Below are positions 1,465 to 50,664 of a DNA stretch of 50,664 nucleotides, one piece after another. A program made the translations under genes and the position numbers. Source of the DNA: Girardia tigrina (lineage: Eukaryota); NCBI GenBank assembly GCA_001938485.1, contig MQRK01223938.1, positions 38,233 through 88,896 on the forward strand. The letters are read 5' to 3'. Within the stretch, counting starts at the first letter, position 1; the number at the start of each line of letters is the position of its first letter. The notes beneath the pieces are model-generated. The model worked only from the letters and a program-made list of their open reading frames with translations, had not been told where the DNA came from and did not search any database.

Positions 1465-2034
1465 ACGCCATTTTTCAAAATTTATTTTTTTGGTTTCGTA
1501 ATTAATTTCGGCGGATTACCCGCCATCTTCGGACTAATTTAACATTAGTTTTCACAGCTTATATTTGAGAATAATGATTATGTAATCAATTATACAATAA
1601 AGGGCGCTTTAAACATTTAAAATCATCAATTTTGAAAAGCTTGATTCCGAATATCATGAATCTAAAAATTATTTCACAATCATTTAAAATTCGTGATATG
1701 TTGAGCAATGAATCTCACACTCATCTCGGTAGTTGATCCGATCTTGTTTATGGTGGGTACTTGTAATGGGTGTAACGCCACATACGTTGGAGAGACATCT
1801 CGTCATCTCTGCAAACGGATCAAAGAGCATAGTCGATTGGATAATGGGAGCAATATTGCCGAACATAATTTAAAATGTAAAAAGAAAATCGAAGAAAATG
1901 ATTTTCAAATTCTGTGTAATCGATTTAAGAATTACTGGGAGAGAGTAACGTGTGAGGCCTTATTAATAAGATCCATGGATCCAAAAATTAATATTCAAGC
2001 TTCACACTCAACTTCTCTGTTAAACATTTTCAAC
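1465..2034 (+). mobile_element. Penelope-like element fragment: GIY-YIG endonuclease with inverted pseudo-LTR at the 5' side
   Basis: CNGCNATYVGETSRHLCKRIKEH...EALLIRSMDPKINIQ is a PLE GIY-YIG signature; an opposite-strand hammerhead motif lies at 1495-1537. Confidence 0.85.
1495..1537 (-). ncRNA. Minimal type I hammerhead ribozyme motif (degenerate)
   Basis: ttagt CCGAAGA T GGCGG-gtaat-CCGCC GAAA TTAA TT acgaa. Core has U4>C; perfect 5-bp helix II; palindromic helix III loop; followed by AATAAA and AAAATGGCG. Confidence 0.7.
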
Positions 2035-2339: not shown

Positions 2340-3207
2340 AACATGGGTTTTCGAACTTTTATTTTCAATACAATCAGAATTGTCTTTTGGACAACTCTCA
2401 GCAAAACTCTCGTTATTCGACATCGTTCTAAATTGATAACTTTTAGTTAATGTTTGTTAATAAACAATTATTCGAACAAATATTTCATTATTTTCAGATT
2501 TTATTTTTAAAGTTCAAATTTTGTAATTTTAGTATTAATTTTATTTACATATCAATTTTATTTAAAAATTATTTTATGCGTTCAAACTGATGTATCTGCT
2601 AAATTGATCGATTTTCGCTAGTATGTATTGATATCCATTAATATTTCTTTTAAAAGGTCCGCAGAAATCCATATATATTTTTTCGAATGGTTCATCAGCA
2701 GATTGTTTAATATGTTTCTCTTTTGTTTTTGTTGTTAAGGTCTTTCTTTTCTGACAATTCATACAACTTTGCACAATTTCCTTTACCGTTTTTCTCATAT
2801 CTTCCATATCGAAATCATCCTTCAAATAATTATAAACTTTCTTACTACCAGCGTGACACAGCATCTTGTATATTTCTTCCACGAATTCAGTAGTATATTC
2901 CTCACGAATTCCTCATGCATAGTTTGACATTGTACACACATTTCACAGGAATTTCTCGACATTGCATCGGCGTTAGAGTGTTTTTCACCTTTCCGGTATT
3001 CCATTGTCACATCCAACCCGCTTAGAAAATTTATCCAAGTTTGAAATTGCGCTGTACTTTAAAATGCAAATTATACTCGAATAATTATTTATTGTGAACA
3101 TCCAAAATATCAATTTTCCACCTTGGTGGGAGAAACACATTTCCAAATACTAAACGCAACAAACAAAATTCAACAAACCAATTTCAACATACCAAATTTA
3201 AAATATT
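2340..3207 (-). repeat. Dispersed repeat homologous to 20605-21100 (inverted), interrupted by a Gypsy fragment
   Basis: gctgtactttaaaat...agaaacacatttccaaatactaaac and tgtcttttggacaa...aataaacaattattcgaac match the reverse complement of 20605-21100. Confidence 0.65.
2575..3052 (-). mobile_element. Ty3/Gypsy pol fragment (end of RNase H plus integrase zinc-binding and core)
   Basis: MEYRKGEKHSNADAMSR; HAG...CMNCQKRK; PFEKIYMDFCGPF..YILAKIDQFSRY; frameshifted and truncated. Confidence 0.85.
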
Positions 3208-4609: not shown

Positions 4610-5262
4610 GAAAAACACGGGGAAGAATGTAAAATAATAATTAGTCGTATATCTTACTTTTGGATTAATTTCAATTCAGACTTTTACGAAAATCAAAAAA
4701 AGTTATGATTTAATAATTTTTTTGAATTAATCTCTTCATCAGTTACATTCAAATTTTTTATTAATTTTGTCTTTTGATTTTAAATAAATTGACTCCACAG
4801 TATTTTTAATGATGTTATTTAAATATTTTTTATTATAACCATTATTACTAAGTCTATTATGGAGAGTATCAATTTCTTTATCAAAAATTTCAAAAGAAGT
4901 TAAACTCCAAACTCTATGCACTAGACCCTTAATCATATTTCTATTATATTTTGGGTCACAGAAACTACTCGGAGTACTGTAAAGACCAGTGTCCGTTGAT
5001 TTTCTGTAGAACCTGTCAAAAATCTATTCTGCTTCCTTTCAATCAAGACATCCAAAAACGATATTTTATTATTTCTTTCACTTTCGCAAGTAAAATTAAA
5101 TATCAGAAAAGTATCATTTACATACCTGGTATAGAAGATTGGTAATTAACCCGGAAAAATTTTAAATTTTTGCTCCAAATTTTGTAAGAAAATTGAAGAC
5201 ATTAACGGAGCCAATGGAGAACCCGTTGCAACTCCATCAATTTGCATATACCAATTGTAATG
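4610..5262 (-). mobile_element. Penelope-like element reverse transcriptase fragment
   Basis: YMQIDGVATGSPLAPLMSSIFL, RYVNDTF (YVDD variant) and MIKGLVHRVWSL..LSNNGY; contains stops and frameshifts. Confidence 0.85.
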
Positions 5263-17050: not shown

Positions 17051-17987
17051 AGAATAATTTCTGTTTCGATCAAAATTAAAAAGAAATTATTTGAATTCTC
17101 AAATCAAATTTTTTCCTCTTTATTCGAATTTTCTCTTTTAGAGATTTTACATTCTTCTAATGATAACATCTAATTATGATCGAATAGAAAAGTTTTCATT
17201 GCTTCACTTATTATACTCGAATTTTAAATTTTTTAATTTTTGATAATCGATATTGGGTTCATCAAGCACATCAGTAACTTTAGTGTTTAATAATTATTTT
17301 TATTTGCGCATTAGTTGAATTTTATTTTTAAACATAATGCTTATGAATAAGAATTAATGAAATACTTATTTTGCTCATATATAATTAATCGAACACTATG
17401 AATAAAATCTTGATCAATTCTAAAAATGGATCATAACTAATACTTATTGTCGTTTCTGTCATTTAATAGGAGTTTTAACAGGAGTTTTGATATTTTCTCC
17501 TAAGCTATTTGTAATAACAGATGATCTTTTGTGTTTTGGAAAATTTGATGCTCTACTTTTGGTTAAAGCTCCACTACAATCTTTAATAATATGTTTTGAT
17601 ATTCATTATATTATTTGTATTTATAGAAGCAATCATCATATTTTATACAAATATGTATAAGTGTTTTATTTGGTATATTACATTCATACTATATTCAAAC
17701 ATACAAGAAAAGGATGATATTTGGAGATTGTTAAACTCGAAGAAGTAAAAGCAGTTACTGAAGAACTGACTAAGAAAACGCCATTGATTCCGTGATTACA
17801 GCGATTGTAATACGATCTGTTCTTCAAAGTAAACTAATAATCAAATTTCAGTTACAAAAATTTACTTTTTCTATTTTTTCAGTTCTCGGCATTAACTGAT
17901 TTCTGTTATTAAAACTTACCCCATGTTACCAATCTACCTGTATACTTAACATTATTATAATTTTGTTCTCACTAACAGTTTATATTA

Positions 17988-18963
17988 TTGGGTTGGTCAA
18001 AAGGTTATTGCGTTTTTGAGTACGTCCTAATAAAAAGCTTGAAAATATAAAACGATGTGATAAAATTTTAATTCAATTATATATTCTGAAACCTTAATTT
18101 TCAGACTATGTTTATACAAAATATTAATTGATTTGTTTTAATTTATTACTTTACCGACAATTCGAAATGGAAAATCAAAATGAGCATATTCGTCATGTTT
18201 TGTTGTATTATTTTCGCAAAGTGAAAACCGCTGTGCAAGCTCATAAGATATGTTTTGTATATGGTAGTGACTCCTTAAAACTTCGACAGTGTCAATACTG
18301 GTTTTCTAAATTTCGTTTTAAAAAATTTCATTTGAAAGATGCACCACGCTCCGGTCGACCAGTTGAAGTTGATGGTGACAAAATAACAGCACTGATCAAA
18401 TCTAATCCACATATGACGACAAGAGAAGTTGCAGAGACTCTGGAAATATCAAATTCAAGTGTTGTAAATCATTTAAAGAAACTTGGATTCGTCAGTAAAC
18501 TCGATATGTGGTTACCACATGAACTGAAAGAAATTCATTTGATGAAACGTATAGACATTTGCGATTCCCTTTTGAAGCGAGAACAAAGTGATCCATTTTT
18601 GAAGCACTTGATTACGGGTGACGAAAAATGGATTGTTTACATCAATGTGGAATGCCGGCGATCATGGACAAAACGTGGTGAGCCTGCCAAAACGGTCCCA
18701 AAAGCAAAAATTCACCAAAAGAAAGTTATGCTTTCCGTTTGGTGGGATTTTAAAGAAATTGTGTTTTTTGAACTCCTTCCGAGGAATGAAACCATCAATT
18801 CAGATATATATTGTGGTCAGCTGGAGAAATTGGCTCATTCAATTCAACAGGAACGTCCTGAATTGGTAAATCGAAAAGGAGTTGTAATTCAGCATGATAA
18901 CAAAAAATTTTTTTGATAATAAATATTTTAGTAAAAATTGAAATGACCTTTTGGCCAATCCAA
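17988..18963 (+). mobile_element. Mariner transposon, 3'-deleted transposase (ORF from about 18167 to 18916)
   Basis: TIRs ttgggttggtcaaaagg / ccttttggccaatccaa with TA flanks; HTH, WLPHEL, ITGDEKW and QHDN; YSPDLAP region missing. Confidence 0.95.
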
Positions 18964-20318
18964 TATATAAGATGAAGGTAAAATACGAAAAAAATACATA
19001 TTTTAAAATTTTTTTAGTAAACGACTCTAAGTTACTACTAAGTTAATGAATATTTTTTGGAGTTTTTTTATGTTTTGTTTCATAAAAATACTGAAGTTAA
19101 TGAAGATATTGAAATTCGCCATATTATGCTTTAAAAGGCATGTTTTAAGTGATTTCAAAAACTCCATCCATAAACGAAAATTCAGTAAAAACTAAATTAT
19201 AGCATAGTTCAAGAACTTTAAATTGAACGACATTAATTTTAATAATTAAAATTAGGAATTAGTAAAACCTCAAATTTAAATGACTAGGTACATTTGGCCA
19301 TAAAGGTACATTTGAACAGGCCAAAAGCTTGACAACGATAACGTTCAATGAAGCCTTTAATATGGACAAATGTATTCTTCCCTGGAATTGTCCAACTACC
19401 AAGTAAATTGAAAGTAGTATTTAAAATATATAATGAATAAGCAGTGAGCTAATTACTTGAAGATGATTTCGTTAAAAGTATTTTTTGAATACAAAATTGA
19501 CTTTAATTATGTATAAACATAAACTATATTAATTAGAAGCAAAAAAGTGAAATTCTTTTTATCTGAAGTTGTGATTTCAATGTTATCCATCTCTCTGTTC
19601 TGGGAGAATTACGGAACAATGTCATTGTACGGATTGTTGCTCCTAGTCGGAACGCCAACTACTTTATTAACTTGTTTATGTCATACGGTTGAACGACCAA
19701 AACATAATGATATTTTTAAAAATGAACAATAAAACATTCATTGAATATAGTAATAAATAAGAGATTATCAAAATCCGAAATTAAAGGAAAATGAACACAA
19801 AAGCTCTATTTAGTTAACTTATTAATAATGTCCCCATTGTTCAGAAGACTATTAAAACTGAAATATGTTAAAAGCTTTTAAAAAGCATCAAACTTGATGT
19901 TAATCTTAACATACTATATTCTAAAGTTATGTTTCACAAGAAGAAGCTTGGTTACATGAAGAATAACAAAGAACGACTTAATTTTTAAAAAGCTTTCTTT
20001 CTTTTTTTTTGCATCGGTATATTTGATTTCTTGCTGGAATTATCTTAGTACCAAAACTTTACTCAGTACAATGATCCCCTAAATATTTTGGTAAATTAAT
20101 AATTTTACTTACTTAATAAAGAAAATGATCTTCCTTACAAACTATTTACAATAATTTGATATATAAATAGCTGTAAAGCAATTTGTTGTATTAATGAATA
20201 CAAGAATAAATACCATTTTATTTGTATTATTCACAATAATAAACGTTTTCTAAGAGTTTTTACTTCCCAACTTTATTTATTTTATCAAGTACTTCCTATT
20301 TTATCACAATAATTAAAT

Positions 20319-20430: not shown

Positions 20431-21408
20431 TAAATTATCAATTTTAAATACTTTTATAAATACCAAAGAAACGATCGATAATCAATCAATAAACAGAATA
20501 AAACTGAGACTAAAATGATATAAAAACCACAGATTTAAAATATATTTTGAGTATTCCATATTATGAAGATTTTGCTAAATTTAAACGTACAGTTGTTGTT
20601 TTAGTAATATTTTAAATTTTGTATGTTGAGTTTAGTATTTGGAAATGTGTTTCTCTCACCCAGATGGAAAATTGATATTTTAGATGTTCAAGATGAATAA
20701 TTATTCGAGTATAATTTATATTTTAAAGTACAGCATAAGATATTTTAAAAACTAAAAATATTAAATCGTTTCAAATTTTAATATTAAAACTTTTAATAAT
20801 TGTAAATAACTTTTAACTTATTTTTAAATTGATTTAATAAATCATTTTCTTTAAATAAAATTATTTTGAAAATTAAATTAATTTTTAGATAAAATATTTA
20901 ACAAAATTATAAAAGTAGAATTTTTAAAATAAAATCTAAAAATAATTTGAAATGAAAATTGGTTCGAATAATTGTTTATTAACAAGACATTAACAAAAAT
21001 ATATCAATTTAGAGTGTTCAAATTATGAAAGCTTTGCTGATAATTGTCCAAAAGACAATTCAAATTGTTATGAAAATAAATGTGTGAAGACCTATATCGC
21101 AAACCGATAAAATCAAAAACGTAGTATGCAATATGGATTGTGTTCGGATCTGGTATATCAATTTACATGTAATGAGTACAATGTCATATCAATTAGAGAG
21201 ACATCTCGTTATCTCTGTAGGAAAATCCAAGAATATGGCCCTAATGTTTGCGCTAATATTGCAGAACACTGAAAAGTTTTAAAATTGATTTTTAGATCCT
21301 AAGATAATATGCAAACATGTCTCTAGACAACTTTATTCAGTGTTTTTAGATGACATAATTGCTCATTTATTATATACTCCCTGCTTGTCTATGTCATAAT
21401 TTATTAAT

Positions 21409-23299: not shown

Positions 23300-24290
23300 A
23301 GATTTAAAACGGTTTTTTGTCCATTTTGAATAAACATTAAATGGGTTGTAGGGTCTTATCAAAAATGATTCACAGAACTTTCTCTCTTAATGTGAATTAA
23401 AGTCCTTCTGTAGAACAGAAAACTCATCCTTTGAAACAGAAGACATTCTATTTTTAAAGAGTAACCAATGATAAAGAACTTTACTCAATCGACTTGATTG
23501 TGAAGGCTCATTAATTTGGGTTTTGAGATAACGATTTGTCTCTTCCATGAGTATCTGCAGTCTCTTTCATTGGTATTGCCTCTACGTTCTTTAGATTGTC
23601 CACTAAAATGTAAGAGTATCTAGTAGTCCTCCGAAAGGCCTGATACTTGGTTGGATTGATTTCGTCCCTTTTCGGCTTTTTCATAAGGAACTATCACTAA
23701 TGAACTGTAGTTCCATGATTCTGCGTGTCTTTGGTTGTATTTATTGGTAGGAAAAGTCAATCGCATCATGTATTTTAAATCGGTCACTCATAAAAGTACT
23801 AAAGCTATTGGTTACTTAACGTTGAAGATTGGACGCGATCAGGTTTACCTAACCTTGCATGGTCATTTTAAGTTCACATTATGATCATATTTATGATGAT
23901 TTCAACATTAACGTATTCAAAGATCCTACCTCAATACTTAATGACCTTAATAGTTGGGCGTGCAACATTTATCCAATGATCTGCTGTCTCTATTTAAACA
24001 ACTTGGTTATACTGCCTTCTTATTATATTCTTCTTCTTAACTACTCATCTCAAACCTTTCCATGGTCAAGCATTCCAGTTGCTGTATTACAAGCTGTATT
24101 ATTACACCAAATATAAGAGATTTTACATTCGTGACAATGTAATTTAATTTATAATTCGATTTGAAGGATTTAGAGCATTTAAGAAGAATATTTACCATAT
24201 TATAGTTAGTGGTTTCAATTACATCCAAAGTTTAAAGCTTCATCTGAAATAAATCGAAAACGATTTGTGGATTGTAATATTACTAATCTA
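23300..24290 (-). mobile_element. Penelope-like element fragment (same family as 27491-29070) with 5' inversion and an insert in the GIY-YIG
   Basis: 23340-23550 aligns to 28882-29070 (about 83% over 89 nt counted by hand); CHECKISYI at about 24110-24140; 24160-24290 is an inverted copy of the pre-endonuclease segment. Confidence 0.8.
23551..24102 (-). mobile_element. Decayed zinc-finger insert, homolog of 28311-28881
   Basis: Its 3' end aggcctttcggaggactacTAG...agtggacaatctaaaga...caatacca..agaga matches the 3' end of the 28.3-28.9 kb insert; HGTTVH versus HGTKFH. Confidence 0.65.
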
Positions 24291-27494: not shown

Positions 27495-29070
27495 TCAAAT
27501 TTTGTGCCAAAAATGTACCTTTTCTTTTTAATGAATTCAGGAAGACTGTATCGCAATGGGTTCTCCATTAGCACTAACTTTGGCATCAATCTTTATGAAG
27601 TCGCTTGGGGATAAAATGAATGCATACCCTGGTGAAAAACCTGTGTTGTCCAAGAGATATGTGGATGATGTCTTTTTGGTTTTCAGAAATCAATCCCTCA
27701 ATGAACCATTCCTAACATTTATGAATGGTCTTCATCCGAATATTAAATTTACCACAGAATTGGAAGTAGATAATAATCTTCCCTTTCTGGGCATTCTTGT
27801 CACTAGGATGAATGGAGGCTATAAAACTGAATTATTCAAAAAGGCAACAAATACAGGTCTTTAAAAAACACCACAGAGTTTTTGTGAGGAACAATATAGA
27901 GAGGGTATGATAAAATGGCTTGTTCACAGAGTTTGGAATTTGTCGTCCAGTTTTGAAATTGCAAATCAGGGTTTAAATATTCTTAGAAGGCGCTTGAAGG
28001 ACAATATGTATACAAACAAGCAAATAGAACACAACATTAGGGTAACATTAGACAAATTATGTACATATGTACGAGTTAAGAAACAATTAAAGGAAGAAAT
28101 TACTGAGAAATACAAACAAATCCTTAAAATACCATATTCTGGTGGATTTAGAGCGTTTAAGAGTAATATTTATATAACAATACGTAGTGCTAAAGTAGTC
28201 TCTGTCACATCCAAAGTTTAAAGTTTCCTCTCAAACAGTTTTTGGTTCACAAACTAATCTGGTATATAAATTTAATTGTCACGGGTGTCAAAACTCGTAC
28301 ATCGGAGAGATCACGAAGGAGCAGAGCCAATCCCGCAGAAGAAGAGAGAGAAAAAAGCCCAACCACGTCAGAAGAAAGGAAAATATCAATGTCAACACTG
28401 TCCGAGGGAATACAAAGCCGCTGGTTTCCTAAGGATTCATATTCAGAAGAATCATTAAGAAACGCCAACATCCAACGCACAGAGAGAAGAAAACTTAGAG
28501 AAGAGAACGAGGAAGAGCCGATATCAAACCAATCCAATCCTCAGTTGCCGGACGCAACTGTGAGTATGCCGAGGATACAGCTGAACGACAATGCCGAAGA
28601 CACGCACCTACAATACCGACTGCCAGCCGATTACAAGACTGCAAGAGGACAATTTAAGTGCCCATTTCGCGGTTGTTACGCGTTCACCGTAACAGCCAAC
28701 GGCATGTACGGCCATGGTACAAAGTTCCATGGTTGGTCGTTCGTTACTGCTCAGTTGACTGCTCAGAAGCGGAAGGCCACGGACCCTGTAGGAGGCCTAT
28801 CGAGGGGCCATTAAGGACTTTAGTTTGAGTGGACCCTCTAAAGAGCCTTAGGCTCAATACCATTACAGAGATGGGAGGCCCACATCGGAGAGACAAATCG
28901 TCATCTCAAAACCCGGATTAGAGAGCACTCACAAATGAGTCGATTGAGTAAGGTTCTTGATCATTGGTTATGTTGTGATACTTCATCCATTTCAAAAGAA
29001 GAATTTTCTGTTCTACAAAAGGGATTTGATTGACATTACAAACCACAGTTTTGTGAATCTCTACTAATAA
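27491..29070 (+). mobile_element. Penelope-like element (RT plus GIY-YIG), 5'-truncated at a (TA)n tract, endonuclease split by an insert
   Basis: MGSPLA..IFM, KRYVDDVF, HPNIKFTTELE..LPFL, MIKWLVHRVW; VYKFNCHGCQNSYIGE [insert] IGETNRHLKTRIREH. Confidence 0.92.
28311..28881 (+). mobile_element. 571-bp insert encoding two C2H2 zinc fingers, with a 12-bp TSD
   Basis: ACATCGGAGAGA duplicated at 28299-28310 and 28882-28893; YQCQHCPREYKAAGFLRIHIQKNH and FKCPFRGCYAFTVTANGMYGHGTKFH; stop at 28814, short 3' tail, no poly-A or TIR. Confidence 0.85.
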
Positions 29071-29480
29071 TTATGCCAACAGAACTCTCAAACTTCTCCA
29101 TCATCTCAACATCCCCTTTGTTGACAAGGAGTGTAATCCTCCCTACTTCCCACACTACCACCCCATTGAGAACTTTTGGGGCGCTCTAAAGGCGAAAGTG
29201 TATGAGGGAAGCTGGGAGGCTCAAACAATCCCTTAACTACAGCAACCGATTAATAAAATGTTGAAAACAATGGATCAGTCCACGTTGCGGAAGGACTTAA
29301 AATGGATTAAGAAACGGCTTCATGCTGTGTATAGAGACGGACCACTTTCAATTATTCTGTAAACATTTTTTGTTCCTTACATCTTACCCTTCAATAAAAT
29401 ATAAACAGCTTCTGGAAATTTTATTTCGTCTTTTCACAATGGTGGTTTAAAATTTGTTCAGAATTTGTCCGCGTACCCGT
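29071..29480 (+). mobile_element. Tc1/mariner-superfamily transposase C-terminal fragment with right end
   Basis: NPPYFPHYHPIENFWGALKAKVY motif; ends ...gtccgcgtacccgt followed by TA. Confidence 0.75.
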
Positions 29481-40239: not shown

Positions 40240-40728
40240 TTGATTAAAATGGAATATATATACATACATATATATATACATGTATATATATATATATAAA
40301 AAATAAAAATAACAAACGCCATTTTAAAAGTTTTTTATTTCCCAAAACATGTTTCGCCATTACGGCATCATCAATTGTGAAGTGAATTTCAAATTACAAG
40401 TCATTTATATAGCACATTGACTATTACCCAATTAATCTTTTTTTTTAATATTAAAAGATTTTAATATGATTGGATAATTCACTTTGAACATTTAAGCATG
40501 GTTTTAAATGCTTTATTAATAATGCCTCAGTGACTATCCTCTCATGATATATGTCTAAATTTGTCTTCAAAACAGTAAATTCAGTTTCATAGTTAACTTT
40601 ATCTCTATATCTGCATTTTTTAATGTGATCTAGAATCGAGCTATTCCTACTCAATTGGGTGTGTTCAGCTATTCTAGTGCGGAGATGACGATTTGTTTCT
40701 CCAATGTACAAGGATTCACACTTGTGAC
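40240..40728 (-). mobile_element. Penelope-like element 3' end (GIY-YIG plus pseudo-LTR) between (TA)n tracts
   Basis: HKCESLYIGETNRHLRTRIAEH...EALLIKHLKPCLNVQ followed by a hammerhead, AATAAA and AAAATGGCG. Confidence 0.9.
40339..40381 (-). ncRNA. Minimal type I hammerhead ribozyme motif (C3>U)
   Basis: ttcacaa TTGATGA T GCC-gtaat-GGC GAAA CATG TT ttgggaa; helix I pairs 6 of 7; palindromic CATG loop. Confidence 0.75.
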
Positions 40729-43560: not shown

Positions 43561-45469
43561 TATCAGACCTTTTAAAAAGGATTTTCAATTTCGGATCGTT
43601 ATCGATAGTTAAAATCCAAAAAATCTGTCCATTCTTTTCCTAGCGGAATCAGCTGCGTCTTTATGGGCTCGGACACAGCTACGAAAAAATCGAACAACAT
43701 TTTACTTCTCATTGTCAAATATTTTCAGGTTTTAATATTTATTATTATTTTTTAATATTTTTATTTGTTTAATGTACTTTATATAAAAAGAAAAGTTGTT
43801 TAAAATTCAAATTATTTTTCCTTTAATTACTGTTTACAATTTAACAAAACATTTTTTTGGATTTTTATTAAAATCTAAGATAAAAAATGGTATTAATTCA
43901 AATAAAAAAAATTTGTAAGTTATGAAAATTTTGTTATCTTTACAATAAAAAAATGTTAATTTTGTTTGAATAATATTTTTATTATTTAACTTTGTTTATT
44001 TTTTTAATTATTAAAAAAAATATATTTAAGTATATTTACAATTGTCGAATAAATATTATCATAATATCAATTTTAATTAAAATAAATATTAAATACTTTT
44101 TATAAATAAATATTTTGAAAATGTTTTAATTACGAATATATTTATTTATTAAATTAAATATGCAATTGATATTACAAATATTTAATTTAACTTTTGTTTT
44201 TTATTATTTTTTTGATTGATTTTTAAGAAATATTAAATTAAAACAAAATTGATGAAGTTTTTTTTATAATTATGATGTAAAATGTTTGATATATTTGAAA
44301 AATAGCTTGTTCATTTTTTAAATGGTTTTTTACGTGAGTTTTTATTGATTTTTATGTTCTGATAAAAGCAATTTGTTTCTTTTTTAAAAAATCAGTCTAT
44401 TAAAAAAGACTTGAAATATGTTAAGCAAAGAATTTATTGATTTTTTGGAATTTTTTATGTTTGGTTTTTTTTAATTAGGACTTTCGATAAAATAATTAAA
44501 GAAATTAATGGAATTTTAAAAATCAATTATAAATTAATTTTGATTTTAATAAAATCAATATTTTAAATTTAGTACTTTTAATTTATTTTTATATTCCTTG
44601 TTATGATTGTGGTGCTCCTGTCAAACGACCGAAATTATAAAACTGACTTATTTAAATAAATTAATGAAAAATAATTTTTGTGTAACAAATTTGAATATCA
44701 TTAATTAAAAAACATTTTTTTCTCAACTATGTTTGTTATTTACCTCGAAGTATAGAAGAAAAACGTGTCAAAAATTAAAATTTGTTGAAATGAGTGGGGA
44801 ATCACACTACACTGCCCTACAGCGGGCCTGATCTGTCGGATCCCGTGCGTCATCTCCTCACACAATTAGTCGACGCACGTCGGATCCACGCGACCACATT
44901 AACTGCGTATTTGGGTCACGGGTCGATGAATCGAGTCGATTATCCAACACTTCGAGCTGCATTGACGGTCACAGAAAGAGGCACGCGTTACGGGAAGCTG
45001 CAGTTAACCGGATATGAGACCGCTACTCAGCGGTGCACCGATCGGTATCGTTCAGGTCTAATCGAACTCTGATCGGCACAGAACCGGCCGATCCTTTCGC
45101 TGAATTGTAATTTCTCGAACAAGAAAAGGTGCTGGCCGCCGCCATTCATTCCGGTAGCGGCACCTCAATGATCATTATACTACCAAAAATAATTTTGTTA
45201 ACAAATTGGTAAATTTTCGAAAAGTTTATTTTTTACACTTTTTGATCAAGAATAAATTTTTAACTAAATTATTATTATATTCTTGGCGTTAGTCATTATG
45301 GTCTAATACGAAGATTATTTAAAAAATAAAATTTTTATTTTCATAAATATTTTTGTCTTTTATACAGAGACAAATAAACAAAAAAAATTATAGAGCTTTC
45401 TTTTGCTTTAAAAACTTGAGAAAAAATTTAAAATATGTATTCTTTCGTATTTTACCTTCATCTTTTATA

Positions 45470-46577
45470 TTGGGTTGGCCAAAAAGTCATTGCGTTTTTT
45501 GCTAAAATATTTATTATCAAAAAATGACATGGATGCACAAATATTTTTACACGATATACTGTCCATTATTTTCAATCACTTTCTTCCACCTTTCCGGTAG
45601 CTTCATTATTCCTGATTCATAAAAACCTTTGCCTTTGTCAGCAAAAAAGCCGTCTAGAAACGATTTGATGTCATCATCACTGGCGAATGTTTATTTCTGT
45701 TTAAGGAATTCTGCAGTGATCTAAATAAGTGAAAATCAGATGGGGCCAAGTCTGGAGAATACGGTGGGTACGGCAAAACCTCCCAACCCAGTGATAAAAG
45801 TTTCTGGCGAGTGGTCAAACTTGTATGTGGTCTTGCGTTATCATGCTGAATTACAAATCCTTTCCGATTTACCAATTCAGGACGTTCCTGTTGAATTGAA
45901 TGAGCCAATTTTTCCAGCTTTCCACAATATCTGTCTGAATTAATGATTTCATTCCTCGGAAGGAGGTCAAAAAACACAATTCCTTTAAAATCCTACCAGA
46001 CGGTAAGCATAACCTTCTTTTGGTGAATTTCTGCTTTTGGGATCGTTTTGGCAGGCTCACCACATTTTGTCCATGATCGTTTCTTTAAATGACTTCCAAC
46101 ACTTGATTTTAATATTTCCAGAGTCTCTGCAACTTCTCTTGTCGTCATATGTGGATTAGATTTGATCAGTGCTGTTATTTTATCGCCATCAACTTCAACT
46201 GGTCGACCGGAGCGTGGTGCATCTTTCAGATGAAATTTTTCAGAACGAAATTTAGAAAACCAGTTTTGACACTGTCGAAGTTTTAAGGAGTCACTTCCAT
46301 ATACAAAACATATCTTCTTATGAGCTTGCACAGCGGTTTTCCTTTTGCGAAAATAATACAACAAAACATGACGAATATGCTCATTTTGATTTTCCATTTC
46401 GAATTGACGGTAAAGTAATAAATTAAAACAAAATCAATTAATATTTTGTATAAACATAGTCTGAAAATTAAGGTTTCAGAATATATAATTGAATTTAAAT
46501 TTTACCACATCGTTTTATACTTTCTAGCTTTTTATTAGGACGTACTCAAAAACGCAATGACTTTTTGGTCAACCCAA
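45470..46577 (-). mobile_element. Mariner transposon, same family as 17988-18963, central deletion
   Basis: TIRs ttgggttg with TA flanks; MENQNEHIRH N-terminus, QHDNARPH and YSPDLAPSDFHLF; lacks the WLPHEL-GDEKW segment. Confidence 0.95.
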
Positions 46578-47050
46578 TATTTTAGATATTTGAAAGTTTT
46601 TTTTATTTTTTTTCTTTTAAGTTGTTTTCCCATTATCTCTTTGGTATTCCTCTGATTGGATCTTTTTTGACTTAATTCAAATTTTAACTTTCCATAGTGC
46701 TTGTTTTCTTATCACATGTTCATTAAATTTCAGACTCGGTTTTGTGACTGTCTCTTATATTTATTCTGGTTTTTCACATAGCATTTCTGCTACTCTTTTT
46801 TAGCAAAGTTTTTTTCCTTTTTCTTTTCGTGTAATCGTCAGCATTCTCCTTAAGCACTTCATTTTAGCACTTTCAATTTATGTATATTCTTCTGATATAA
46901 TGTCAAACTCTCGTATCCATAGAGAGAGGTTGCTCCAGTAATTTTATAAAATAATTTTAAAATTTTGTTATAAGCTTATTAAAATTAAATTTTTTAATTA
47001 TTTATTATGTGAAATAATAATATTCCTTTCCGAAAATTTTTTTCTGAATT

Positions 47051-50172: not shown

Positions 50173-50664
50173 GGGAGCGACGATGTATCGTTTAACGATG
50201 AGTCGATGTATCGTTAACGATGCTTGTTTCGATGCATCGTTTTCGATGCATCGTTAACGATGCATCGCAACACGCATCGTTTACGATGCATCGAAATAGC
50301 CTTCATCGTTAAACGATGCATCGAAAGACTGCAGCGTTCACGATGCATCGAAAGACTACATCGTTAACGATGCATCGAAAGACGCATCGTTAACGATGCA
50401 TCGAAAAAACCTTCTTCGTTTATCGATGCATCGAAAGACTGCATCGTTAACGATGCATCGAAAGACTACATCGTTAACGATGCATCAAAACACGTATCGT
50501 TTACGATGTACCGAAAAGACTTTCATCGTTAAACGATGCATCGAAAGACTGCATCGTTAACGATGCATCGAAAGACTACATCGTTAATGATGCATCGAAA
50601 AACGCATCGTTTACGATGCATCGATAAAACTTTCATCGTTAAACGATGCATCGAAAGACTACAT
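50173..50664. repeat. Palindromic tandem array (cgatgcatcg / catcgttaacgatg units) with 110-bp higher-order period, truncated by the window end
   Basis: Register repeats at 50301, 50411, 50521 and 50631; begins GGGAGCG. Confidence 0.9.

What the first reader, a model, noticed from the sequence alone, without database searches (positions are those of the whole stretch)
28299..28893. Zinc-finger insert sitting in the YIGET codons of a Penelope endonuclease: candidate site-specific parasite of a retroelement
Seen: a 571-bp GC-richer insert splits the PLE GIY-YIG exactly at Y-I-G-E-T, with a perfect 12-bp duplication (ACATCGGAGAGA). It encodes two C2H2 fingers, has a stop codon and a 67-nt tail, and lacks TIRs, LTRs and poly-A. 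A homologous insert of similar length (about 552 bp) occupies the same site in a second PLE copy at 23551-24102. Three other GIY-YIG copies (near 1785, 21195 and 40700) are empty. Established: the YIG motif is part of the conserved catalytic core of GIY-YIG nucleases, and some non-LTR elements target conserved multicopy sequences. Inference: this is an element, or the 3' end of a longer one, that targets and inactivates PLE endonuclease genes. I do not recognise the family.
Basis: partly seen in the sequence, partly recalled or inferred. Interest (0 to 1): 0.88.

Follow-up and report, generated by a model that had tools for sequence, protein, structure and literature searches.

The report
Retrotransposon homing on Penelope and rDNA
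The insert is the tail end of a jumping gene whose family has landed hundreds of times at one exact base inside the DNA-cutting gene of another jumping gene and also at a look-alike site in ribosomal RNA genes, likely because its own protein reads a short DNA pattern that the two sites share.

Summary
Observation confirmed. The 571-bp insert is a 5'-truncated copy of a ~3.9-kb RTE-type LINE (one ORF: APE nuclease, RT, three C2H2 fingers; HDV-like ribozyme head; fixed, folded 3' end). 355 of 720 exact 3' ends abut the Penelope YIG site; 5' ends vary from 28 bp to full length, at least three Penelope families are hit, and roughly 40-65% of the main host family is interrupted there by this lineage or its short non-coding riders. 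Targeting is relative, not strict: half the copies lie elsewhere, but those sites share a spaced motif (GTG at -14 to -12, then T^AC). The same motif lies in 28S rRNA, where the lineage forms tandem stacks: 8 of 9 assembled downstream halves carry one of its elements, and the deepest-branching family sits mostly there. Best reading: a protein-read motif whose older home is likely 28S rDNA, with Penelope Cys-x3-Tyr-Ile-Gly codons as a very abundant look-alike; sister families use the Penelope site only 5-10% of the time. Whether family A adapted to Penelope is open. I found no sequence-specific RTE-type element in print; Repbase could not be searched.

The parts
27535..28298 (+). Host Penelope-like element (family 1), 5' part: end of RT, thumb and start of GIY-YIG; 5'-truncated and decayed
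   Evidence: tblastn of Penelope ORFs from L147 and L065 covers 27535-28309 at 78-84%; translation; RVT_1 on those ORFs
28285..28288 (+). Upstream half of the target motif (GTG plus T at -14 to -11); overlaps the second Cys codon of the host C-x2-C
   Evidence: sequence; motif derived from non-Penelope sites
28299..28310 (+). Left target-site duplication; insertion point is between 28298 and 28299; last 5 bases shared with the element (microhomology)
28311..28881 (+). 5'-truncated copy of RTE-type LINE family A (last 571 bp of about 3.9 kb)
   Evidence: 40 scored genome hits at 93-100% that extend upstream into RT and APE; 81-83% aa to intact protein P0001 residues 976-1144
28390..28455 (+). 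C2H2 finger 2 (followed in this copy by a premature stop at 28456-28458)
   Evidence: weak Pfam zf-C2H2 hits below cut-off
28659..28730 (+). C2H2 finger 3 (other frame in this copy)
28812..28881 (+). Stop codon and 67-nt 3' UTR; folds into stem-loops; fixed 3' end without poly-A or tandem repeat
   Evidence: fold of 28790-28883 z = -3.09, 0 of 200 shuffles as stable; same end in all 60 loci
28882..28893 (+). Right target-site duplication
28894..29075 (+). Host Penelope-like element, rest of GIY-YIG (T-N-R-H-L-K-T-R-I-R-E-H...)
   Evidence: end coordinate approximate
23551..24102 (-). Second, older and decayed insert of the same lineage at the same site in another Penelope copy
   Evidence: about 70% to family C over 190 bp
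23367..23550 (-). 3' Penelope flank of the second insert
   Evidence: 74% to 28824-29059
24103..24274 (-). 5' Penelope flank of the second insert
1745..1990 (+). Empty GIY-YIG of Penelope family 2; relatives elsewhere are hit at YIG and, on the opposite strand, at a second motif match
   Evidence: coordinates approximate
21100..21230 (-). Empty, degenerate GIY-YIG (family 2 type)
   Evidence: coordinates approximate
40430..40728 (-). Empty GIY-YIG of Penelope family 3 (assembly gap just upstream); relatives elsewhere are hit
   Evidence: coordinates approximate

Best explanation
The insert is a 5'-truncated copy of a ~3.9-kb RTE-type LINE (APE nuclease, reverse transcriptase, three C2H2 fingers) whose insertions fall at a spaced DNA motif found both in Penelope YIG codons and in 28S rDNA, likely because its protein reads that motif, with the 28S site likely the older home. 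Steps. SHOWN: one ORF with APE, RT and three fingers; fixed 3' end, variable 5' truncation and 10-14-bp duplications; site consensus G-T-G at -14 to -12, T at -1, A-C at +1/+2; hot spots at Penelope YIG and at one 28S site; tandem stacking; short non-coding riders with the same head, tail and target. FROM ESTABLISHED KNOWLEDGE: target-primed reverse transcription from an APE nick.
For: Identity: (RVT_1 E 4e-33, Exo_endo_phos_2 E 1.5e-6 on P0001, 97% to a genomic copy). Hot spot: 355 of 720; 17 of 30 unselected 3' ends; 40 of 90 full-length 5' ends in sense Penelope sites. Independence: lengths 28 bp to full length; Penelope label needs 19 changes on the element tree against 22.8 shuffled; three host families hit. 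Motif: near the junction in 11 of 37 unique non-Penelope 5' flanks against 10 of 592 control windows, p 1.5e-9; spacing one base shorter or longer gives 0 and 1 of 37. In 23 duplication-defined non-Penelope sites (27 rows less 4 dropped, counted by hand) G-14 22, T-13 19, G-12 17, T-1 23, A+1 23, C+2 20. Three unique insertions are on the reverse strand of family-2 Penelope at a second motif match. 28S: Rfam RF02543 on the flanks; this genome's 28S has the motif at the same spacing (L423); 8 of 9 downstream halves are preceded by lineage elements; 0 of 22 upstream halves that reach the site continue intact. Deepest family G has 4 of 6 readable 3' ends at 28S. All 8 proteins of the clade (SH-like 99) keep three fingers, with Lys and Arg at fixed finger-1 positions, against 3 of 112 other homologs with two or more.
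Against: The core motif alone occurs an estimated 170,000 times in the assembly while family-1 Penelope sites number about 4,200, so wider context or something else must account for 49%; a matrix free of Penelope-derived rows is not available, so this is open. Sister families with the same finger 1 use Penelope far less (45 of at least 501; 2 of 23; 1 of 18), which the motif alone does not explain. rDNA is collapsed or missing in the assembly, so the share of 28S insertions is unknown, and most assembled copies of every family except G are not in 28S. Targets of the distant three-finger relatives are unknown (no flanks). Ribozyme hits are below Rfam's gathering score. In L1Tc the C-terminal fingers bind nucleic acids without sequence specificity (PMC5814959, passages), so fingers need not be readers. 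No RNA evidence and no structure model were obtained.
Confidence: 0.75

Rival explanations
1. Family A (and C and the short rider) has adapted to Penelope: selection tuned recognition to the invariant YIG codons, giving a large harmless, transcribed landing pad and disabling a competitor.
For: 49% against 9% or less in the sister tail variant; A is stricter at +2 (C in 36 of 38 off-target flanks, against 13 of 24 in the sister); about 19 of 30 short riders are at Penelope sites; 40-65% of the host family is interrupted; an uncleaned matrix scores the Penelope site above the 28S site (21.5 against 15.5 bits).
Confidence: 0.22
2. Hot-spot choice is helped by RNA pairing: copies sitting in Penelope or 28S are read through, and the few extra 3' bases pair with like targets, so a family's home reinforces itself.
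For: No poly-A and a fixed end with A at +1 in all 62 off-target flanks; family shares differ despite near-identical fingers; dispersed 28S pieces begin or end exactly at the site, as expected if flanks are carried along.
Against: The strongest signal is upstream of the nick, where a 3' tail cannot pair, and it holds for 5'-truncated copies; off-target flanks show no clear likeness to the Penelope site beyond +2; duplications keep the target's own variant on both sides (L027, L057); reverse-strand Penelope hits have no tail homology.
Confidence: 0.12
3. One chance insertion into a Penelope copy, later amplified with its host or by 3' transduction.
For: Many copies share the same family-1 flank.
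Against: Each Penelope-embedded copy has its own 5' breakpoint; several host families, both strands, tandem stacks and several element families occur at the site; Penelope and other copies are interleaved on the tree.
Confidence: 0.01

Closest known systems
RTE-clade LINEs (RTE-1, Bov-B type) and their bipartite non-autonomous derivatives
   Same: Single ORF, N-terminal APE then RT, no RNase H, short 5' UTR; short riders made of head and tail (PMC5786205, passages). HDV-like head is an RTE trait recalled from the literature, not read here.
   Different: Three C-terminal fingers instead of none or one; fixed folded 3' end without tandem repeats; base-precise hot spots. RTE-1 is listed as integrating at random (PMC13708176, passages and table).
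Trypanosome ingi/RIME and L1Tc/NARTc (ingi clade)
   Same: Closest in how it works: APE-type, relative site-specificity with a conserved motif upstream of the nick, 12-bp duplications (PMC3820030, passages), C-terminal C2H2 fingers, HDV-like ribozyme, short riders (PMC5814959, passages).
   Different: No RNase H domain, no poly-A; RT motifs and nearest homologs are RTE-like; targets are 28S rRNA and another retroelement.
R1 and Tx1 clade site-specific LINEs (R1Bm in 28S; Tx1L in another transposon)
   Same: APE-type elements at fixed sites in rDNA or in other transposons (PMC4640811, PMC8869645, passages; Tx1L's target is recalled).
   Different: Different clade; these have an ORF1 (recalled); here half or more of the copies are dispersed and two unrelated multicopy targets are shared.
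R2, R5 and LIN9_SM (restriction-like endonuclease elements in 28S)
   Same: 28S home, ribozyme release from a co-transcript (R2). LIN9_SM of Schmidtea mediterranea inserts in the same 28S stretch, 3 bases from this site (PMC4640811 S6 Fig, passages).
   Different: Other nuclease class; LIN9_SM is in the opposite orientation, ends in a T-run and shows no comparable duplication: convergence on one site, not kinship.
Pokey (DNA transposon)
   Same: Prefers a 28S site but also inserts elsewhere (PMC3706591, passages).
   Different: DDE transposase, not a retroelement.

Membership tests
Non-LTR retrotransposon, APE type | APE domain N-terminal to an RT in one polyprotein | tested here: met
   PF14529 and PF00078 above cut-off on P0001; motifs in genomic copies
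Non-LTR retrotransposon, APE type | Fixed 3' end, variable 5' truncation, target-site duplications | tested here: met
RTE clade | Single ORF, no ORF1, short 5' UTR | tested here: met
   APE frame opens about 160 bases after the 5' end; 1145-aa ORF on a 4025-bp contig
RTE clade | No RNase H domain | tested here: met
   no RNase H family at E up to 0.5
RTE clade | RT phylogeny: nests with reference RTE elements | tested here: inconclusive
   forms a long-stemmed clade (SH-like 99) among homologs that include an ordinary single-finger RTE-like locus (L333) and proteins auto-named craniofacial development protein 2; no curated references or outgroup were on hand. Filed as RTE-type only.
RTE clade | 3' end of short tandem repeats (typical, recalled; not strictly defining) | tested here: not met
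   fixed stem-loop tail
ingi clade | RNase H domain after RT | tested here: not met
   feature from PMC5814959 passages
ingi clade | Conserved motif upstream of the insertion and about 12-bp duplication | tested here: met
   works-like only
ingi clade | 76-79-bp 5' signature | not tested
   no reference sequence on hand
R1 / Tx1 site-specific clades | Separate ORF1 (recalled) | tested here: not met
R1 / Tx1 site-specific clades | Nearly all copies at one target | tested here: not met
   49% for family A, 5-10% for sisters at the Penelope site; rDNA share unknown
R2 / NeSL group | C-terminal restriction-like endonuclease | tested here: not met
   C-terminus holds three C2H2 fingers only; APE is N-terminal
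HDV-like ribozyme (5' head) | Nested double pseudoknot layout with catalytic C | tested here: inconclusive
   full-model Rfam hits RF00094 / RF02682 at the exact 5' end of three families but at 24-34 bits, below gathering 44-50; first and third helices keep pairing with changes on both sides between family A and the short rider, read by eye
HDV-like ribozyme (5' head) | Self-cleavage | not testable with these tools
   needs a co-transcriptional cleavage assay
Penelope-like element (host) | RT followed by GIY-YIG endonuclease | tested here: inconclusive
   RT met; GIY-YIG recognised by motif (recalled) and only a weak Eco29kI hit, E 0.16
Penelope-like element (host) | Pseudo-LTRs with hammerhead ribozymes | not tested
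   host copies read here are fragments

The most novel reading that the evidence does not exclude
An old three-finger RTE lineage that homes to a conserved 28S rRNA site has spawned families retuned to the catalytic codons of a rival retroelement, a transposon hyperparasite that has broken about half the copies of its host family at one base and now carries its own guild of ribozyme-headed riders: a caught-in-the-act switch from rDNA safe haven to transposon-on-transposon targeting.
Probability: 0.25. Interest if true: 0.85.

Novelty: new variant of a known kind. Interest (0 to 1): 0.66.

Why it matters
Sequence-specific LINEs are reported mostly from the restriction-like, R1 and Tx1 groups (PMC4640811, passages), and RTE-1 is used in gene writing as a random integrator (PMC13708176). 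An RTE-type element with a base-precise, spaced motif would be another origin of targeting in APE elements, with a natural series of sister families that differ fivefold in target use: a direct way to test how specificity arises and shifts, and whether fingers or the nuclease set it. The 28S site matches the Rfam eukaryotic consensus, and an intact 1145-aa protein exists (P0001), so it is testable as a second rDNA safe-harbour writer. It also shows that an amino-acid motif conserved across Penelope families can act as a conserved DNA target, putting a measurable load on another transposon.

Tried and rejected
Single insertion later amplified, or 3' transduction as the cause of Penelope flanks: rejected. 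DNA transposon, intron or LTR piece: rejected, upstream copies hold RT and APE. Second window insert as a near-twin: rejected. My first idea that the tail variant is one 28S-specific family: rejected; it is a mix of subfamilies and the P0002-like family R is mostly dispersed (20 of 23 read ends, 7 of 30 loci gave no readable end). Dating by pairwise identity: A and the tail variant both have median 0.95, no ordering; the Penelope figures there rest on 4-11 short rows and were not used. Flanks of distant relatives: the metagenome scan returned ordinary RTE-like loci, none with a 28S flank (80 loci); the viral-contig scan found nothing. Sequencing runs: only contigs hold the junction stretch (2 runs with half the words or more); no read evidence was obtained, so expression and true rDNA occupancy are open. 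Structure prediction failed on the machine. First ribozyme alignment had wrong coordinates, redone. ESM Atlas and PDB searches gave only generic RT/APE/zinc-finger neighbours. Earlier scan notes: nothing for this genome or sequence.

Full report
1. Observation. GC is 0.49 in the insert and 0.34 in both flanks. This copy is broken between the fingers by a stop and a frameshift. The second insert (23551-24102) is at the same site, but a genome search with its 3' 300 bp finds only about 70% matches (39 non-self hits of 40 scored): an old member of another subfamily. Three other GIY-YIG copies in the window are empty.

2. What it is. The genome is a 1.43-Gb AT-rich assembly in 255,254 contigs; haplotype duplicates inflate absolute counts but not ratios. 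The insert gave 3,128 first-look candidates, 40 scored, all covering it at 93-100%. Upstream these copies run into RT and APE. Full-length copies start directly after the left duplication and are about 3.8-4.0 kb. An intact 1145-aa protein, 97% identical to a genomic copy, is in the protein collection (P0001): APE, RT, no RNase H, three C2H2 fingers. The first 90-110 bases match Rfam HDV-like ribozyme models over their whole length in three families, but below gathering score. The 3' UTR folds well (z -3.09). On an RT tree of 129 rows the families of this genome and six unnamed proteins form one clade (SH-like 99, FastTree, no bootstrap, no curated references; five rows under half filled); all 8 full proteins of it have three fingers, against 3 of 112 other homologs with two or more. 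I call it RTE-type; the clade label rests partly on recalled motifs.

3. The Penelope hot spot. 720 exact 3' ends of family A exist; 355 are followed by an 8-base Penelope-type flank. In the first 30 unselected ends 17 were Penelope-type. Of 269 exact 5' ends (this head is shared with sister families) I read 90: 40 in sense Penelope sites, 2 Penelope plus a tRNA piece, 5 on the reverse strand of family-2 Penelope (3 unique), 1 tandem, 1 ambiguous, 41 other (three of these later proved to be 28S stacks). Element lengths at the site run from 28 bp to full length. On a tree of 68 3' ends (16 of 84 rows left out as too short or chimeric) the Penelope label needs 19 changes against 22.8 shuffled. 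Host load: 1,631 exact upstream 27-mers against 937 exact spanning 27-mers suggests about 43% interrupted. Directly, of the first 61 listed sites 57 could be judged: 38 interrupted, 19 empty (small contigs, biased upward). Of 40 fetched sites that were not exact-empty, 12 held family A, 9 a short non-coding element, 11 other relatives, 3 unassigned sequence, 5 were empty.

4. The motif. Non-Penelope sites are not random. GTG(T/A), nine bases, then T^A lies at the junction in 11 of 37 unique flanks against 10 of 592 control windows (p 1.5e-9); spacing 8 gives 0 of 37, spacing 10 gives 1 of 37. One search found 27 sites fixed by their duplication; I dropped 4 (two Penelope variants, one 9-base AT-only match, one tandem repeat) and counted the rest by hand: G at -14 in 22 of 23, T at -13 in 19, G at -12 in 17, T at -1 in 23, A at +1 in 23, C at +2 in 20, full core in 13. 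Downstream of +2 off-target flanks do not resemble the Penelope site. Because the signal is upstream of the nick, holds for truncated copies and also draws insertions to the reverse strand of family-2 Penelope, I infer protein recognition. In the host the motif falls on the second Cys of C-x2-C and on Tyr-Ile, which explains why several Penelope families are hit. Against sufficiency: the core occurs an estimated 170,000 times, family-1 sites about 4,200 times (14 of 36 flanks carry the exact 27-mer), and about 19 bits of enrichment are needed; the matrix gives 21.5 bits but includes two Penelope-derived rows, and a clean matrix is not available.

5. The 28S site. A recurring 11-bp duplication led to 28S rRNA (Rfam RF02543). 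This genome's 28S has the motif at the same spacing, with an A-like element inserted in sense orientation (L423); the Rfam consensus has it too. All 9 exact matches to the downstream half are preceded by foreign sequence, 8 by elements of this lineage or its riders and 1 by an 18S piece. Of 30 fetched upstream halves (104 candidates, 40 scored) 22 reach the site and none continues intact; 8 run into lineage elements within 170 bases, the rest end at a gap, a contig end, an unknown head, a deletion or AT-rich DNA. Intact rDNA is not in the assembly as served, so these are dispersed or collapsed copies; pieces that start or stop at the site suggest flanks carried along from rDNA-resident sources (inference). 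Family G, deepest among this genome's families, has 9 hits; 4 of 6 readable 3' ends (with L421) are at 28S.

6. Families differ. Penelope share: A 355 of 720; family C 6 of 14 on the tree; short rider about 19 of 30 by eye (163 exact ends); tail variant 45 of at least 501; R 2 of 23 read, 1 at 28S; C' 1 of 18 read, 2 at 28S; the 1.2-kb rider F 1 of 10, 2 at 28S (7 and 12 of 30 loci unreadable for R and C'). A and R share finger 1 exactly. Tuning, timing or RNA pairing could each explain this; I could not separate them.

7. Mechanism. Committed reading: co-transcription from the host, release by the ribozyme, protein binding to the folded tail, finger 1 on the GTG, APE nick at T^A, target-primed reverse transcription, second nick 10-14 bases on; the upstream motif and left duplication survive, so later copies stack 5' of earlier ones (L057, L469, L574). 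Shown and inferred steps are marked in Best explanation.

8. Literature. Nine searches returned no sequence-specific RTE-type element and no LINE targeting Penelope; the library lacks most subscription papers and Repbase, so the family may be catalogued. Seen as passages: PMC4640811 (plus passages of its S6 Fig), PMC13708176, PMC5786205, PMC5814959, PMC3820030, PMC3636483, PMC8869645, PMC5035012, PMC3706591. Not held: the 2025 Nature survey of site-specific retrotransposons and the 2011 paper on retrotransposon HDV-like ribozymes; both and their supplements may bear on novelty. The closest mechanism is ingi/L1Tc relative specificity; the closest site is that of LIN9_SM, an unrelated element 3 bases away in 28S.

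9. Verdict. New variant of a known kind; interest 0.66.

Noticed in passing
L296, L310, L461-L490 (163 exact 3' ends): A 410-420-bp non-coding element with an HDV-like head and a tail shaped like the LINE's; same motif, 10-13-bp duplications, in Penelope and 28S stacks; head helices covary against family A.
   Followed up: partly
L413, L419, L420, L548-L562: A second non-coding rider of about 1.1-1.2 kb (family F) with a similar head, at 28S, Penelope and dispersed sites.
   Followed up: partly
L102 3136-3240 (minus) / L119: About 75 bases of 5S rRNA sit between the Penelope duplication and the 5' end of a full-length copy: likely a template jump by the RT (Rfam 5S, E 1.5e-9).
   Followed up: partly
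L237, L250: The 3' half of a tRNA (anticodon read as Gly by eye) lies between a Penelope flank and the element's 5' end; same kind of chimera.
   Followed up: partly
L572-L601, L413-L421: Dispersed 28S fragments that end or begin at the insertion site; none crosses it intact. L417 joins an 18S piece to the downstream 28S half.
   Followed up: partly
L324, L577, L162, L438, L044, L141, L422: Further unassigned heads or tails stacked at the same sites; probably more rider or LINE families.
   Followed up: no
L136, L150/L228, L153/L210: Family-2 Penelope has a second motif match on the opposite strand just upstream of YIG, and it is used.
   Followed up: yes
window 29076-29360: Fragment that reads like the end of a Tc1/mariner-type transposase (motif recalled) directly after the host Penelope.
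   Followed up: no
window 4787-5253 (minus): Another decayed Penelope RT, about 40% to family 1.
   Followed up: no
window 2340-3170 and 20610-21100 (minus): Two related decayed integrase-like fragments, each next to a family-2 Penelope GIY-YIG.
   Followed up: no
window 17986-19013 and 45421-46579: Two inverted copies of an unidentified repeat at 90-95% identity.
   Followed up: no
window 50247-50664: Tandem array with a period near 55 and 110 bases running off the window end.
   Followed up: no
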